Positions 53,201 to 64,000 of a stretch of DNA of 64,000 bases are shown here, piece after piece. Numbering within the stretch: position 1 is the stretch's first letter; each line of letters begins with the position of its first letter. The stretch comes from Escherichia coli (GTDB taxonomy: Bacteria; Pseudomonadota; Gammaproteobacteria; Enterobacterales; Enterobacteriaceae): assembly GCF_003790525.1 (NCBI RefSeq), contig NZ_CP033635.1; one strand, given 5' to 3'. A program made the position numbers.

Positions 53201-56200
53201 AAAGCCACAGTCCCTTACGCTGTTCCGGGCCAAAAGGCTCACAGACCCGCATGTTGCGTAACGGCACGCCGGCACGGTACATCAGGTCATACAGGGGATT
53301 GTAGATAGCTCGGGTTCTGGCGTTATATATCCATATATCACGAGCTTTCCAGTCATACAACGGATACAAGGTGTAATAAAACCCTTCAGGTGACGCTGTG
53401 GTCCAGGGTTTATCATCTGCATATCTCAGTTTGCGCTGAGACACCAGTCCCACAAAGCGATTGAGCGATTCATCAGCACGAACACCAGTCAGTATTGCCA
53501 CTCCACACCGGTTACCGGCAAACCAGGAAGAAAATGCCGGAACAAATTCTTCAAACGTCATGGCATACCGATAAAATGGGAAGTACGACATATCTGTAAT
53601 AGCGTCATCTGGTGGCTGACGAACCCACTCCACACCTGGTTCCCAGCATATCCATTCCGGCTGAAACTGAGAGACACCGTTTACCGTAGTCAGGGGGAGT
53701 GCCACCCAGTAAAAAGTCTCCGTCACATCCCGATACATCTCCCTCATCTTCAGAATGTGTGCAATTGTGCACTGGTACTGAGCTTCCCAGTCAATGAATA
53801 ATACAGAGAAACGACGTTTCTTCCTGCGAGCCACATCGGCCGTAAGATGGAGCAGCACAGTAGAGTCTTTTCCTCCGGAAAAAGACAAACAGACAGAAGA
53901 AAATGTCTCAAACAACCACTCAATACGGTGAACGGCCGCACACAGGACATCCTCACCCGTCAGGATTTTTTTCGCGGAAAAATCATTGTTCATTCCCCTT
54001 CCCCACAGGTTCTAAAGGCTTCAAAGTAATATTGTCCGACAGCACGTTACGCCATTTATAGTACATAGCGGCAGAACCACCTGAATATGGCAAACAATAC
54101 AAACTGATATTACTCATCCTCCCACTCCTTGTTGTGTAATAGAATTCGTTTAATTTGATGATGTTATGTCAGAACGAAAGCTAACAAGATAATTTCTATC
54201 GGTATAGCCAACACACTCGATGGACCCCATATCAGGATAAAACGCTACAGTATAACCGCTGCCATACAGAGCATGGCGGTCACGAACACGGGTACCGCCA
54301 GGGTGATGACATAGTCACGTACGCGTAAACGTAAATTGTTCGCCATAATGATCAATGCATAACAATGAACGCCAGTCTTTATTTACAAAGACGCGCACCG
54401 ACAAATAACTCACTGGTAACATAGCGTACTATTTCGCATCGCTGGCCCCGGACGCGATCAAACAAATAACCAGGTAAGCCTGTGGTCTGCACGGCAGGCA
54501 TATCCGGTAAGCGAACAGTAACTCCCCGAGGCCAAAGAGTGCCCAACAGAGACAAAATGTCCTCAGGCGTATCCGTATTCAACATGGGAAAAATAGGGTA
54601 ATGCCAGAGCAGGCAGAAACTGAGAAACAATCCTGCAGGTGCTCTTAAAAGACAACTGTAAGTTTCTGACTCTTCAGACTGCTTAATCACATCATCATGC
54701 TCCGCCAGCACCGGCTTTTCAATAAACAGCGCGCGATACGGTTCCAGTTCTTTAATCCGTGCTTTCACTATCAACCACTATCAGCACGCTGGTGCAATCG
54801 TGGAAATCAAGACCAGACTCAATCTGATTGCCAAAAGCTTCACGAATAGCCCCAGTTCTTTACAACCATTCAGTTTGAGGGTATCGAAGCCGATTTCGTG
54901 CAGGGTTTTAATACCGTCGATAGCATTTGCCGGACGATCGCCGCCAACCCTACGATAATTTTATGTGCTGTCCATCACTTCTATCAACATCATTTTCTGT
55001 CCTTTGTACTACGACCATTTCCTGTTATTTGAATCAATTCAATATCGCTAGGATAAGATAATTCATAACCGTAAAGTAACCGACGCCAGACAAGAGTTGA
55101 TAACTTAGATGTTATCTGACGCAGAAGAAAAGAGAGAATTTTTGACTTTTATCAAAGACCCATTTGAACTCTTGTTTTCATGTTTTTGCATAATTGAATT
55201 TATTAAATATATTTCTCGTCAAATAACATGTTAAACGTGAGGTATATCTCCATGCTTATCATTAAAACATTAACAAACATTATGATTTAATGATTAAAAC
55301 TAATGGCAATATAAGTCAATTTAATCGCCGCATTTGTTGACAATTGCCAACATCATTTTATAACCTGATATTAAATCCAGCCGGTACATTTTTTCTAATT
55401 ACTTATGAATAAGCAGGAGGATGAGGATGTCTACGAAATTATGGGGCGGACGTTTTGATATGCCAACAAATAAACTCGTTGAACAATATAATGCAACTAT
55501 CACGCTGGAGCAGCGCCTATGCCCCTTTGATATTCAAGGAAGCATAGTTCATGCCACGATGTTAGGACGTCAGGGAATAATCACACAGGATGAAGCCAAT
55601 ACAATTATTAGAGGTTTGAGACAAGTAAGTAAAGAAATTGAAGACGGCCAATTCATTTTCGATACTGTAGATGAAGATATTCATATGGCCATTGAAAGAC
55701 GGATGACTGAAATTATTGGCCCTGTTGGTGGTAAACTCCACACGGGGCGAAGTCGTAATGATCAAACCACTGTTGATTCTAAAATGCATATGCGAGCAAT
55801 TATCCGTGAAATTCAAGAGGATATTACCAACCTGCAAAAAATAATAATTAACAAAGCAGAAAACAATATTAATGTCATCATGCCAGGCTATACTCATTTG
55901 CAAACAGGTCAGCCCATTCTTTTATCTCACTGGATTATGGCATATTACTGGATGTTGCGTCGTGACTGGAATAGGTTTGAAGATCTGTATCAACGGATGG
56001 GAGAATGCCCTTTGGGGGCAGCGGCTCTCGCCGGTACGACATTCCCTATTGATCGTAATTTTACGGCTCGTGAACTTGGTTTTGATAAGCCAACTGAGAA
56101 TAGTATTGATTCTGTCAGTGACCGCGACCATATGGTCGAATTCACCGCGGCAGCAGCGATGTGTTTTATGCATCTAACTCGCCTTTCAGAGGAACTGATT

Positions 56201-62200: not shown

Positions 62201-64000
62201 TCTGGAGAGTGTGTTCCGGATATTAAGAGGATAAACGTATGGTCAGGGAATAGTTATGTGCGGTAAATATGGAAGATTTCAGATTTTTTGACATTTACAC
62301 TGATGCATGGCACTCCCCCATTGTTCAGAAAGAGTATATTCTCCCGGATGCTTCGTTACCAATCCTGCCCGTTTTTTCCGCAATTTTATCGTGAATGAAT
62401 TTGTCCTGGAACAACATTGGTCTACCAGTGAACAGAGGATATTATTTCTCTGGATTCAACTGTGAATTCGCTCATCTATCTGCCAAGTAATACTCCACGG
62501 TTTTTGATAAGCACATTTTATGAATGTTACTCATCATCACGATGAGCATCAGGATATCATTAACAAGCCCCTCCCGATAAATCCGGAATTAACCACATTT
62601 CATGGGTACAAGAAAACCATTATGTATTGAAATGGTCCCCATTATTCATGTCTGTCACTTTATTCATTAAACTGCCTAAAACCAATACTATAAAAGCCCC
62701 GGCACGTTACCGGGGCGAGGTTATTAGTACTGATTGAATATCTGCTGGATCTGCTGCGGATCTTTGGTTTGCGTCAGAGCCAGTTGCAGCAGAACACGTG
62801 CTTTTTGCGGGTTCAACGTGCCAGAGGCGACGAAGCCATATTTCGCATCATCCACTTCGGCATCCTGAGTGGTTGCTCCCGTCGGTACGCGGGAAGAACG
62901 CACTACCGCAGTGCCGTTTTTCGCGGCGGTCGCCAGGGTGTCAAACACGGATTTATACAGGTTACCGTTACCCACACCAGCGCTAACGATGCCATCATAG
63001 CCCGCATCTACCAGTGCTTTAGCCGGAAGATCGGATGCGTTAGCGTAGTTATAAACAATGCCGACTTTCGGCAGTTCATTCAGCTTAGAGACATCGAACG
63101 GCGTATCACTGGTGTGCTTACGTGCCGGGGTGCGCTGGTAGTCAATCTTACCGTTGTGAATGTAACCCAGAGGGCCGTAGTTAACAGACTTGAAGGTCGC
63201 TACGTTGGTGGTGTTGGTTTTAGTGACGTCACGGCCATCCAGAACAGTGTCGTTCATTACTACCAGTACGCCACGATTAGCGGAGGCTTTATCAGCTGCG
63301 GTAACTACCGCGTTATACAGATTGAAGGGACCGTCTGCGCTCATGGACGTGGACGGGCGCATTGCACCGACCATCACCACCGGTTTGTCACATTTCACCG
63401 TCAGGTCAAGGAAGTAAGCGGTTTCTTCCATCGTGTCGGTACCGTGGGTAATGACGAAGCCGTCGGTTTTATCGCAGTCGGTGTTAATTTTTTTCGCCAG
63501 TGTCAGCCAGACATTATCGTTCATGTCCTGGGAGCCGATATTCACTACCTGCTCGCCTTTAACGTTCGCAATGTCCTTCAGTTGCGGCACCGCATTAACC
63601 AGATTTTCTACGCCAACTTTACCCGCTGTGTAGTTAGATTTGGTTGCGGAGTCACCACCACCGGCAATGGTCCCGCCGGTTGCTAAAATGGTGATATTGG
63701 GTAATGCCAGTGCTGCACCACTAAAACCCATAACCAGTGCGGCAAGTGCCGTTCTTTTATAGAAATTCATATCTACCTCCTGGACTGTGAAATATATTTA
63801 CCATGTATTTTTCTATAGAACAGTTAATGCCTTATAAATTTGCTTAATAATGATATGTTTTAATAAATTCATTCTCTTTAACTTGTCATTAACTCATCCA
63901 GAATAAGATGATAAACTGTTATATTTCAGGATATAATATCCCTCCTTGACAGGTGGGCGAACAACATTAACTATCGATAAAAAAACACCGCATTCCGTGA

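What the first reader, a model, noticed from the sequence alone, without database searches (positions are those of the whole stretch)
55337..63770. AT-rich island: ArgH-family lyase, two Dcu-type carriers, GntR regulator and kinase-less DcuR-like regulator, beside asparaginase II
Five co-located genes with AT-rich codon usage sit in a GC-normal core context. The set (fumarate-lyase superfamily enzyme, C4-dicarboxylate antiporters, DcuR-type regulator) parallels the known aspA-dcuA and dcuSR-dcuB-fumB units, but the lyase has ArgH-type rather than aspartase or fumarase motifs. It ends tail-to-tail with ansB, which supplies aspartate for fumarate respiration. I infer a module that releases fumarate from an N-succinyl-type or aspartate-derived substrate and exchanges C4-dicarboxylates; I do not recognise it as a described operon.
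Basis: partly seen in the sequence, partly recalled or inferred. Interest (0 to 1): 0.8.

Follow-up and report, generated by a model that had tools for sequence, protein, structure and literature searches.

The report
Mobile ArgH-like lyase plus Dcu carrier cassette
A small gene cassette that moves between gut and water bacteria pairs a look-alike of the arginine-pathway enzyme argininosuccinate lyase with dicarboxylate carriers and its own repressor. It most likely imports and splits an unidentified succinate-linked compound to release fumarate, although databases label the enzyme as ordinary argH.

Summary
The genes are real and AT-rich: GC is 0.395 over 55337-62723, against 0.465 for the window. 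The setting is not core. It is a decaying accessory island downstream of cobUST. The same island sits on a conjugative plasmid, and only 145 of 5426 complete E. coli genomes carry it. The neighbouring ansB is a second copy, 95% identical in DNA to core ansB.

The conserved unit has four genes, not five: lyase, dcu1, dcu2 and gntR. Citrobacter, Budvicia, Anaerosinus and Sutterellaceae carry this cassette; Campylobacter and Vibrionaceae carry the lyase-dcu1 pair. The lyase passes the NCBI argH model but belongs to a separate clade (NJ bootstrap 100/100).
- Clade loci have a Dcu carrier in 23 of 31 cases and argG in none.
- Canonical ArgH loci have argG in 43 of 49 cases and a Dcu carrier in none.
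- All catalytic and fumarate-site residues are kept.
- Positions nearly invariant in ArgH are replaced: D33E, Q328S, K325T, L297K.

The palindrome TTGTYGACAA marks both cassette promoters across three phyla.

The DcuR-like regulator is an orphan found only in E. coli, with no kinase remnant nearby. In this window dcu2 carries a 1-nt frameshift.

The likely function is GntR-controlled uptake and cleavage of an argininosuccinate-like compound to fumarate. The substrate is unknown. I found no paper describing the module.

The parts
55142..55155 (+). FNR-box-like sequence TTGACTTTTATCAA, about 180 bp upstream of the lyase promoter. A consensus match only.
   Evidence: Citrobacter werkmanii L011 has TTGATTTTTATCAA at the same relative place. 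Other Citrobacter loci diverge here, so its function is uncertain.
55334..55343 (+). Predicted GntR/FCD operator TTGTTGACAA. It overlaps a perfect -35 hexamer (TTGACA, 55338-55343). A likely -10 (TATAAC) lies at 55360-55365.
   Evidence: It is the only exact match in the 64-kb window. An exact TTGTYGACAA lies 69-100 bp upstream of the lyase start in 11 of 12 loci that carry the GntR gene, from three phyla. It is absent from loci without that gene.
55427..56803 (+). ArgH-family lyase of the Dcu-linked clade (458 aa; an alternative ATG lies at 55421).
   Evidence: TIGR00838 614.9 bits. 43% identical to E. coli ArgH. NJ bootstrap for the clade is 100/100. Signature replacements. dN/dS 0.03-0.11.
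56868..58184 (+). Dcu-1, a DcuA/DcuB-family carrier 64 bp downstream of the lyase. Its orthologue follows the lyase in every well-sampled clade locus.
   Evidence: NF006927 460 bits. Orthologues 55-94% identical lie directly after the lyase in Citrobacter, Budvicia, Anaerosinus, Campylobacter, Vibrionaceae and Sutterellaceae. 35% identical to DcuB and 50% to Dcu-2. dN/dS 0.03-0.04.
58300..59615 (-). Dcu-2, the second DcuA/DcuB-family carrier, divergent from gntR. In this window a 1-nt deletion in a C6 run (now C5 at 59525-59529) shifts the frame after codon 30.
   Evidence: Of 174 E. coli genomes that carry the gene, 173 have the intact C6 allele. The intact allele has dN/dS 0.08-0.17.
59628..59637 (+). 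Second operator-like site, TCGTCAACAA (one mismatch), in the dcu2/gntR divergent promoter region.
   Evidence: Citrobacter has the exact palindrome TTGTTAACAA at the same place. Sutterellaceae have TTGTCGACAA between gntR and the second dcu.
59770..60426 (+). FadR/GntR-family regulator with an FCD ligand domain. Predicted repressor of the cassette.
   Evidence: Pfam PF00392 and PF07729 on the orthologues. Weak NCBIfam matches to NanR and LldR. Co-occurs with the operator. dN/dS 0.03-0.04.
60427..61404 (.). 978-bp AT-rich stretch (GC 0.35) with no ORF longer than 57 aa. Not a decayed kinase gene.
   Evidence: No tblastn match to DcuS at E<=10. No Rfam match. 99.7% identical to the plasmid copy.
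61405..62130 (+). Orphan DcuR paralogue (241 aa, GC 0.34) found only in E. coli. It is not part of the transferable cassette.
   Evidence: NF007750 312.9 bits. 57% identical to core DcuR, with the receiver aspartates, the lysine and the HTH kept. The nearest non-identical relative among 5.8 billion proteins is core DcuR itself.
62696..62716 (-). Terminator-like hairpin after ansB2.
62724..63770 (-). Second, island-borne copy of the asparaginase II gene (ansB2). It is the first gene of an ansB2-dcuA2-aspA2 module that runs beyond the window.
   Evidence: NF008304 704.5 bits. 95.4% DNA identity to core ansB over the coding sequence only, and two places per carrier genome. Neighbours.

Best explanation
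Window 55334-60426 is a self-contained catabolic cassette spread by horizontal transfer.

Proposed mechanism:
1. A FadR/GntR-type repressor with an FCD ligand domain binds the palindrome TTGTYGACAA. One site overlaps the -35 of the lyase-dcu1 promoter. A second site lies in the dcu2/gntR divergent region. The repressor releases when the substrate or a product binds it.
2. Dcu-1 then imports an N-substituted L-aspartate, that is, a succinate adduct. The substrate could be argininosuccinate itself or, more likely given the remodelled pocket, a related compound.
3. The ArgH-clade lyase removes the substituent by the usual beta-elimination and releases fumarate.
4. Fumarate is respired by fumarate reductase or enters C4 metabolism. 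Succinate or fumarate leaves by antiport through Dcu-1 and/or Dcu-2, as in the aspA-dcuA system.

In E. coli the cassette has been assembled with other parts into a larger mobile island of fumarate-yielding functions. Those parts are an orphan DcuR paralogue, a second ansB, dcuA-aspA, pepT-dcuC and an isoaspartyl peptidase.

Shown here: the gene content; the separate clade; the exclusive synteny with Dcu rather than argG; the conserved operator; purifying selection; repeated transfer; retention of the catalytic residues; and replacement of otherwise invariant pocket residues.

Inferred: the direction of the reaction, the transported species, the inducer, the link to respiration and the identity of the substrate.
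For: - Synteny. Among the 80 loci of the genome scan, lyases at least 54% identical to the query have a Dcu carrier in 23 of 31 loci and argG in none. Lyases below 54% have argG in 43 of 49 loci and a Dcu carrier in none.
- Conservation across lineages. The lyase-dcu1 pair is conserved in Enterobacterales, Vibrionaceae, Campylobacter, Negativicutes and Sutterellaceae.
- Phylogeny. The clade is monophyletic with NJ bootstrap 100/100 on 207 sequences.
- Active site. R115, N116, T161, H162, S283, K289, N291, E296 and K331 are 100% kept and Y323 95% kept in 142 clade members. D33->E (98%), Q328->S (96%), K/R325->T (96%) and L297->K (96%) replace residues that are at least 96% invariant in 187 canonical ArgH sequences.
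- Active-site network. K325 hydrogen-bonds E296, which positions the catalytic H162 (PMC2779060).
- Operator. It is found exactly at both cassette promoters and nowhere else in 21-kb loci, and only where the GntR gene is present.
- Selection. dN/dS is 0.03-0.17 for all four genes.
- Transfer. In Citrobacter the four genes form a 5-kb low-GC islet at three different chromosomal sites.
- Redundancy with the host gene. Core argH is found in 5425 of 5426 complete E. coli genomes, in the argECBH operon in K-12, so carriers already have it. It is only 43% identical to the island lyase.
- Metabolic setting. The island partners are all aspartate, asparagine or peptide-to-fumarate functions. One Parasutterella locus has a flavocytochrome c, a fumarate-reductase-like gene, next to the lyase.
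Against: - The protein scores far above the curated cut-off of the argH equivalog model, and no residue known to be catalytic is changed. It may therefore still cleave argininosuccinate.
- To my knowledge, no Dcu-family carrier has been shown to move an N-substituted succinate.
- I know of no abundant environmental pool of argininosuccinate.
- Some clade members lack an adjacent carrier. In Helicobacter L024 the next gene is a glycosyltransferase. In Campylobacter MAG L018 the carrier is deleted. L017 has none either. I could not check whether the clade gene is the only argH in those genomes.
- The claim that S29, D33 and Q328 contact the arginine end of the substrate rests on my memory of UniProt and structure annotations. 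No tool confirmed it.
- There is no expression, transport or enzyme data.
- In this window one carrier is frameshifted and the surrounding island is decaying.
Confidence: 0.55

Rival explanations
1. The lyase is an ordinary argininosuccinate lyase acting on argininosuccinate made inside the cell. The adjacent Dcu carriers move ordinary C4-dicarboxylates: aspartate in for ArgG, and fumarate or succinate out. The cassette would then link arginine synthesis, or an aspartate-to-fumarate shunt, to dicarboxylate exchange.
For: It passes the argH equivalog model with all catalytic residues kept. Both Dcu proteins pass the generic Dcu subfamily models. A few clade genes stand without a carrier, which would fit a housekeeping role.
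Against: No argG lies within 10 kb in any of 31 clade loci, against 43 of 49 canonical loci. E. coli and Citrobacter already have argH. A dedicated FCD-type repressor and operator is typical of catabolic operons and is not ArgR control. Nearly invariant ArgH pocket residues are replaced.
Confidence: 0.2
2. It is a spare biosynthetic argH that happens to travel with transporter genes, with no functional coupling between them.
For: PGAP names it argH in every record.
Against: The pairing with a Dcu-1 orthologue is kept across at least three phyla despite 20-40% protein divergence. A shared operator sits at both promoters. All members are under strong purifying selection. The contingency with argG is mutually exclusive.
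Confidence: 0.07
3. In this E. coli lineage the block is a silent, decaying remnant of a plasmid-borne island and no longer contributes any function.
For: The flanking TonB receptor and ibrB are broken, and clb and dgoD fragments and IS remnants surround the block. dcu2 is frameshifted in this window. AT-rich DNA of this kind is typically silenced by H-NS (general knowledge). Some genomes keep only fragments of the cassette.
Against: The lyase, dcu1, gntR and DcuR-like genes are intact and nearly identical in 145 genomes. dN/dS between the chromosomal and plasmid alleles is 0.04-0.18. The dcu2 frameshift is present in only 1 of 174 complete genomes and could be a homopolymer sequencing error.
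Confidence: 0.13

Closest known systems
Argininosuccinate lyase (ArgH/ASL, EC 4.3.2.1; NCBIfam TIGR00838; PDB 2E9F, 1TJ7, 1K7W)
   Same: Same fold and family: 457 bits to Thermus ASL, 410 bits to E. coli ASL, and 614.9 bits to the argH model. It has the same catalytic serine loop (GSSIMPQKKNP), the THLQ histidine, K289, N291, E296 and K331.
   Different: It forms a separate clade (bootstrap 100/100). It is never next to argG and almost always next to a Dcu carrier. It has its own GntR repressor and operator. Pocket positions that are nearly invariant in ASL are replaced: D33E, Q328S, K325T, L297K, R/K165T, and V119T/A120T. The host already has argH.
aspA-dcuA of E. coli (aspartase plus DcuA L-aspartate/C4-dicarboxylate antiporter; named from established knowledge)
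   Same: A lyase of the aspartase/fumarase superfamily lies next to a DcuA/DcuB-family carrier. The proposed logic is the same: import a succinate-skeleton compound, release fumarate, and exchange C4-dicarboxylates. The same island carries a true aspA2-dcuA2 pair.
   Different: The lyase is ArgH-type, not an aspartase (only 79.5 bits to the aspartase subfamily model). The carrier is 35-36% identical to DcuB and DcuA2. Control is by a dedicated GntR/FCD regulator.
dcuSR-dcuB-fumB of E. coli
   Same: The DcuR-like protein passes the DcuR equivalog model. It keeps the phospho-acceptor residues and an almost identical recognition helix.
   Different: There is no kinase gene or remnant, and no dcuB-fumB next to it. 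It is 57% identical to DcuR, has GC 0.34, is restricted to E. coli, and is not part of the conserved cassette.
[quoted passage not shown]
   Same: They set the precedent that close relatives of ASL and ADSL cleave other succinate adducts (C-N, C-S) to fumarate in degradative or specialised pathways. Such enzymes are easily mislabelled.
   Different: The sequences are much more distant: EDDS lyase scores 222 bits against 410-457 for true ASLs. None of these is reported with a Dcu carrier and GntR operator. The substrate here is unknown.
FadR-subfamily GntR regulators with an FCD domain (for example NanR, LldR)
   Same: An HTH plus an FCD domain. The short palindrome has the GT-N-AC core typical of the family and overlaps the promoter. 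The regulator gene is divergent from a transporter gene.
   Different: It scores below the cut-off of every named regulator model (best is NanR, 60.9 bits against 260). Its ligand is unknown.

Membership tests
Argininosuccinate lyase (ArgH, EC 4.3.2.1) | Sequence matches the curated equivalog model TIGR00838 above its cut-off | tested here: met
   614.9 bits against a cut-off of 279.5. Best PDB hits are all ASL or delta-crystallin.
Argininosuccinate lyase (ArgH, EC 4.3.2.1) | Catalytic and fumarate-binding residues (duck delta-2 numbering: R115, N116, T161, H162, S283, K289, N291, E296, Y323, K331) | tested here: met
   100% conserved in 142 clade sequences, except Y323 at 95%.
Argininosuccinate lyase (ArgH, EC 4.3.2.1) | Residues of the leaving-group (arginine) pocket and the E296 network that are nearly invariant in ASL: S29, D33, K/R325, Q328, L297 | tested here: not met
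   D33->E 98%, Q328->S 96%, K/R325->T 96%, L297->K 96%, S29->T 77%. Canonical values are D 97%, Q 98%, K/R 96%, L 97%, S 96%. The assignment of S29, D33 and Q328 as substrate contacts is from memory. The K325-E296 contact is from PMC2779060.
Argininosuccinate lyase (ArgH, EC 4.3.2.1) | Genomic association with arginine biosynthesis genes (argG or argECB) | tested here: not met
   argG is within the locus in 0 of 31 clade loci and in 43 of 49 canonical loci. In E. coli the real argH sits in argECBH.
Argininosuccinate lyase (ArgH, EC 4.3.2.1) | Cleaves argininosuccinate to arginine plus fumarate, and supports arginine prototrophy | not testable with these tools
   Needs an enzyme assay and complementation of an argH deletion.
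aspA-dcuA-type lyase/carrier module | A fumarate-lyase-superfamily gene next to a DcuA/DcuB-family carrier gene, with the pairing conserved across taxa | tested here: met
   The carrier lies 0-160 bp downstream on the same strand.
aspA-dcuA-type lyase/carrier module | The lyase is an aspartate ammonia-lyase | tested here: not met
   79.5 bits to NF008909 (cut-off 510) and 52.4 bits to TIGR00839 (cut-off 681.2).
DcuSR two-component system | The response regulator matches the DcuR model and keeps the phospho-acceptor residues | tested here: met
   312.9 bits against 262. The DDD motif at 8-10, D56 and the lysine of IKPF are conserved.
DcuSR two-component system | A cognate DcuS sensor kinase is encoded next to the regulator | tested here: not met
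   tblastn with E. coli DcuS gives no hit in 54-64 kb at E<=10. None is annotated in the island or on the plasmid.
FadR/GntR (FCD) regulators | An N-terminal GntR HTH plus a C-terminal FCD domain, with a palindromic operator at the regulated promoters | tested here: met
   PF00392 and PF07729. TTGTYGACAA is present at both promoters in 11 of 12 regulator-bearing loci. Binding itself was not tested.

The most novel reading that the evidence does not exclude
The Dcu-linked ArgH clade may be a new enzyme activity: a lyase for a succinate adduct other than argininosuccinate. Dcu-1 would then be the first Dcu-family carrier for such an adduct. Together they would give gut and aquatic anaerobes (Sutterellaceae, the Campylobacter lari group, Citrobacter, some E. 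coli) an unrecognised route from a host- or diet-derived compound to respiratory fumarate. Thousands of database entries currently called argH would be mis-annotated.
Probability: 0.35. Interest if true: 0.78.

Novelty: new variant of a known kind. Interest (0 to 1): 0.6.

Why it matters
- Fumarate respiration fed by aspartate is already known, from published work, to support gut colonisation by Salmonella, E. coli and Campylobacter. A second lyase/carrier route that feeds the same acceptor would add an unknown nutrient to that picture. This route is widespread in Sutterellaceae and is mobile into Citrobacter and extraintestinal E. coli lineages.
- It also exposes a systematic annotation problem. 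A curated 'equivalog' model names the whole clade argH, although its synteny, regulation and pocket residues say it is not the arginine-pathway enzyme.
- The conserved operator and the small cassette make the hypothesis directly testable.
- For this window specifically, the practical result is more modest. The block is an accessory, partly decayed island, and one carrier is frameshifted.

Tried and rejected
1. A decayed dcuS in the 978-bp spacer. tblastn with E. coli DcuS found nothing at E<=10, and the same spacer is on the plasmid. Rejected.
2. An RNA gene in the spacers. There was no Rfam match at E<=0.1.
3. Enrichment of the operator motif within the window alone. With one mismatch there were 13 hits against 10.9 expected, which is not significant. 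The support comes instead from the exact site and from cross-species positional conservation.
4. My first dN/dS for dcu2 (0.41 and 0.66) was an artefact of the frameshifted N-terminus and of an indel. I redid it on the intact allele with a codon alignment and obtained 0.08-0.17.
5. I briefly took strain CLSC36, the only complete genome with the C5 allele, to be the source of the window. It is only 98.1% identical upstream of 52340. XDL and SMS-3-5 are 99.99% identical.
6. Ten full-text literature searches and several paper look-ups found no description of the cassette or of the E. coli island.
7. The papers that describe the substrate contacts of ASL were not held, so those contacts remain from memory.
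8. I checked the gene after the Helicobacter lyase in case it was an alternative transporter. It is a glycosyltransferase.
9. Membership of the named special families of the superfamily is rejected, because all scores are far below their cut-offs. This covers XcbC/XcbD, the PRK02186 and PRK06705 types, purB, pcaB, aspA and fumC.

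
Full report
**1. What is in the sequence**

NCBIfam assigns each one above its curated cut-off:
- an ArgH-family lyase (TIGR00838, 614.9 bits against 279.5);
- two DcuA/DcuB-family carriers (460 and 412 bits against 369);
- a FadR/GntR regulator, with only weak matches to named regulators;
- a DcuR-type response regulator (312.9 bits against 262);
- asparaginase II (704.5 bits against 506).

The AT-richness is real. GC is 0.395 over 55337-62723. The lyase is 0.41, gntR 0.40, and both the DcuR-like gene and the 978-bp spacer before it are 0.34-0.35. 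GC3 is 0.27-0.36. By comparison ansB is 0.52 and the whole window 0.465.

**2. The context is an accessory island, not core genome**

The window is 99.99% identical to E. coli XDL and SMS-3-5. In those genomes the block follows cobUST. It is embedded among a frameshifted TonB-dependent receptor, ibrB (internal stop) and ibrA, fragments of clbP, clbQ and dgoD, and IS remnants.

Beyond the window end the island continues with a DcuA-type carrier, an aspartase, pepT-dcuC paralogues and an isoaspartyl peptidase.

The ansB next to the block is a second copy. It is 95.4% identical in DNA to K-12 ansB over the coding sequence only, and carrier genomes have two places that match it.

Distribution in E. 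coli:
- 145 of 5426 complete genomes hold at least 80% of the cassette, and 180 hold some part of it.
- 223 genomes hold ansB2 with its flanks.
- The whole island also sits on a conjugative IncFIB/IncI plasmid, pWP4-S18-ESBL-07_1, at 97.5% identity. There the TonB receptor and ibrB are intact.

Identity to the plasmid copy is 96-98% across the cassette but 99-99.8% across the spacer and the DcuR-like gene. The island is therefore a mosaic.

**3. The lyase belongs to a distinct clade linked to Dcu carriers**

By sequence the lyase is an ArgH. Its best PDB matches are Thermus ASL (457 bits) and E. coli ASL (410 bits). It is 43% identical to the core E. coli ArgH. That core gene sits in argECBH and is present in 5425 of 5426 genomes, so carriers have both genes.

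Its close relatives, at 63-93% identity, are scattered across unrelated lineages:
- Citrobacter, Budvicia and Limnobaculum;
- Photobacterium, Enterovibrio and other Vibrionaceae;
- the Campylobacter lari group and Helicobacter;
- Anaerosinus (Negativicutes);
- many Sutterellaceae.

I aligned 337 ArgH-family sequences and built an NJ tree on 207 non-redundant ones. This group is monophyletic with 100/100 bootstrap support.

Neighbourhoods separate it cleanly from canonical ArgH among the 80 loci of the genome scan:

| Lyase identity to query | Loci | With a Dcu carrier | With argG |
|---|---|---|---|
| at least 54% | 31 | 23 | 0 |
| below 54% | 49 | 0 | 43 |

Most clade loci without a carrier are short contigs or show a visible deletion.

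**4. The pocket is remodelled while the chemistry is kept**

In 142 clade sequences the residues that bind the succinate moiety or do the catalysis are unchanged. In duck delta-2 crystallin numbering these are R115, N116, T161, H162, S283, K289, N291, E296 and K331 (all 100%) and Y323 (95%).

Several positions that are at least 96% invariant in 187 canonical sequences are replaced:
- D33->E (98%)
- Q328->S (96%)
- K/R325->T (96%)
- L297->K (96%)

Further changes are R/K165->T (96%), A166->G (88%), V119->T (89%) and S29->T (77%).

A per-locus table shows a graded series. Positions are in the order 29, 33, 119, 120, 165, 166, 297, 325, 328:
- canonical: S-D-V-A-R-A-L-K-Q;
- the Deferribacteres sister group, in a housekeeping context, changes only position 165;
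- a Sutterellaceae subclade with Dcu nearby: V-E-C-C-T/V-A-L-K-Q;
- the main clade: T/S-E-T-T-T-G-K-T-S.

K325 hydrogen-bonds E296, which positions the catalytic H162 (PMC2779060). That S29 and Q328 bind the substrate is my recollection of UniProt annotations for P04424 and P24058. That D33 lies in the same pocket is my own structural inference. I could not verify either with the tools, because the relevant papers were not held.

My reading is that beta-elimination to fumarate is retained and recognition of the leaving group has changed. This is an inference.

**5. The conserved unit is a four-gene cassette with its own operator**

Budvicia, Anaerosinus, Citrobacter and Sutterellaceae carry lyase-dcu1 together with a GntR/FCD gene and a second Dcu gene. 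Campylobacter and Vibrionaceae carry only lyase-dcu1.

In Citrobacter the four genes form a 5-kb islet of GC 0.44-0.45. It lies at three different chromosomal sites, in flanks mostly of GC 0.54-0.55, and has no DcuR-like gene or ansB nearby.

The palindrome TTGTYGACAA lies 69-100 bp upstream of the lyase start in 11 of 12 loci that carry the GntR gene, across Gammaproteobacteria, Betaproteobacteria and Negativicutes. It recurs in the gntR/dcu2 intergenic region, with one mismatch in the E. coli copy. Exact copies lie almost only at these two promoter regions in the 21-kb loci that carry the main-clade cassette. It is missing where the GntR gene is missing.

In the window the exact site (55334-55343) overlaps a perfect -35 hexamer. 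It is the only exact match in 64 kb.

All four genes are under purifying selection, with dN/dS of 0.03-0.17.

**6. The parts specific to E. coli**

The DcuR-like protein is 57% identical to core DcuR. It keeps the receiver aspartates, the conserved lysine and an almost identical recognition helix. Among 5.8 billion proteins its only closer relatives are E. coli copies of itself.

No kinase gene or remnant exists in the spacer, the island or the plasmid. Nothing in Rfam matches the spacers.

It is best seen as an orphan paralogue that joined the island within E. coli. It may be served by the chromosomal DcuS, but that is speculation.

**7. A defect specific to this window**

Inside the finding, the window differs from SMS-3-5 and XDL by one base. 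A C is missing from a C6 run in dcu2, so window 59525-59529 is C5.

The native start is at 59615, and the frame breaks after codon 30. The ORF that the scanner lists uses an out-of-frame upstream ATG and so lacks the first transmembrane helix.

Only 1 of 174 complete genomes that carry the gene has this allele. It may be a real slip or a homopolymer sequencing error.

**8. Mechanism and rivals**

The best-supported model has five steps:
1. The GntR/FCD repressor occupies both promoters until its ligand appears.
2. Dcu-1 imports an N-substituted aspartate (a succinate adduct).
3. The lyase releases fumarate and the amine.
4. Fumarate is respired or assimilated.
5. Succinate or fumarate is exchanged outward through Dcu-1 and/or Dcu-2.

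This parallels aspA-dcuA. It also fits the company the cassette keeps in E. coli, where the island partners are ansB2, dcuA2-aspA2, pepT-dcuC and an isoaspartyl peptidase. In Parasutterella a flavocytochrome c lies next to the lyase.

The substrate could be argininosuccinate itself. The pocket changes make a related compound at least as likely.

The rivals, scored in their own sections, are:
- an ordinary ASL acting on internal argininosuccinate, with the carriers moving ordinary C4-dicarboxylates;
- a spare biosynthetic argH;
- a silent relic in this lineage.

**9. Comparison with what is known, and novelty**

The protein is a member of the ArgH sequence family. It fails two defining features of the arginine-pathway enzyme that I could test: the pocket residues and the synteny.

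It works like aspA-dcuA but is not an aspartase.

Other members of the superfamily set a precedent for new leaving groups. These are EDDS lyase, the S-(2-succino) lyase, nitrosuccinate lyase and FlcB/FlcC. All are far more distant in sequence.

Ten literature searches found no description of this module. That is a statement about the held library only.

I classify it as a new variant of a known kind.

Noticed in passing
L007 11472-21173 and L008 9930-19637 (Sutterellaceae): Downstream of lyase-Dcu lie an MmgE/PrpD-family gene, LarB (AIRC), LarC (Ni_insertion), a 265-aa ORF with no Pfam hit (possibly LarE) and an M20 peptidase. These are followed by GntR and a second Dcu. Genes for the nickel-pincer cofactor are present without an obvious LarA racemase.
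   Followed up: no
L005 12737-19282 (Campylobacter lari group): Next to lyase-Dcu is a second cluster: a PAS_6/HTH_22 regulator, RidA, DcuC, a Cys/Met-metabolism PLP enzyme, an adenylosuccinate-lyase-like gene and an MmgE/PrpD gene. It may be another succinate-adduct pathway.
   Followed up: no
L035 5729-11407 and L034 8054-14456 (Parasutterella excrementihominis): L035 has a distant 537-aa ArgH-like gene (28% identical), then Dcu, an ArgE/DapE-type M20 deacylase and the clade lyase. L034 has a flavocytochrome c (soluble fumarate-reductase-like) divergent from lyase-EamA-Dcu-GntR. Sutterellaceae appear to have several such lyase/carrier modules.
   Followed up: partly
window 59525-59529: A C5 run where 173 of 174 complete E. 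coli genomes have C6. It frameshifts dcu2. RefSeq models of this allele (CLSC36, WP_225379506.1) use an out-of-frame start and hide the defect.
   Followed up: yes
window about 1-32000: The yersiniabactin high-pathogenicity island (ybtS to fyuA). It is followed by a frameshifted Ig-like/inverse-autotransporter gene, then the core genes shiA-amn-yeeN-yeeO-cbl-nac-ldtA-cobTSU with three tRNA-Asn genes. Coordinates were mapped by similarity to CLSC36.
   Followed up: partly
window about 48000-55300: A decayed stretch: IS4 and cobalamin-gene fragments, a frameshifted TonB-dependent receptor, ibrB with an internal stop, intact ibrA, and remnants of clbQ, clbP (pks island) and dgoD. The receptor and ibrB are intact on plasmid pWP4-S18-ESBL-07_1.
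   Followed up: partly
L095 8894-10970 (E. coli CLSC36, beyond the window end): In this strain ansB2-dcuA2-aspA2 is followed by a further Dcu carrier paired with an aspartate/glutamate-racemase-family gene, then hypT and dgoRKAD. SMS-3-5 has pepT2-dcuC2 at that point. The island differs between lineages.
   Followed up: no
window 60000-62000 compared with L094: The 3' end of gntR, the 978-bp spacer and the DcuR-like gene are 99-99.8% identical between chromosome and plasmid. The cassette genes are 96-98% identical. This implies a recombination boundary inside gntR.
   Followed up: partly
window 56829-56847: A perfect 8-bp stem hairpin (CCCGGATATTATATCCGGG) lies in the 64-bp gap between the lyase and dcu1. 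It has no T-tract. It could be an attenuator or an mRNA-stability element.
   Followed up: no
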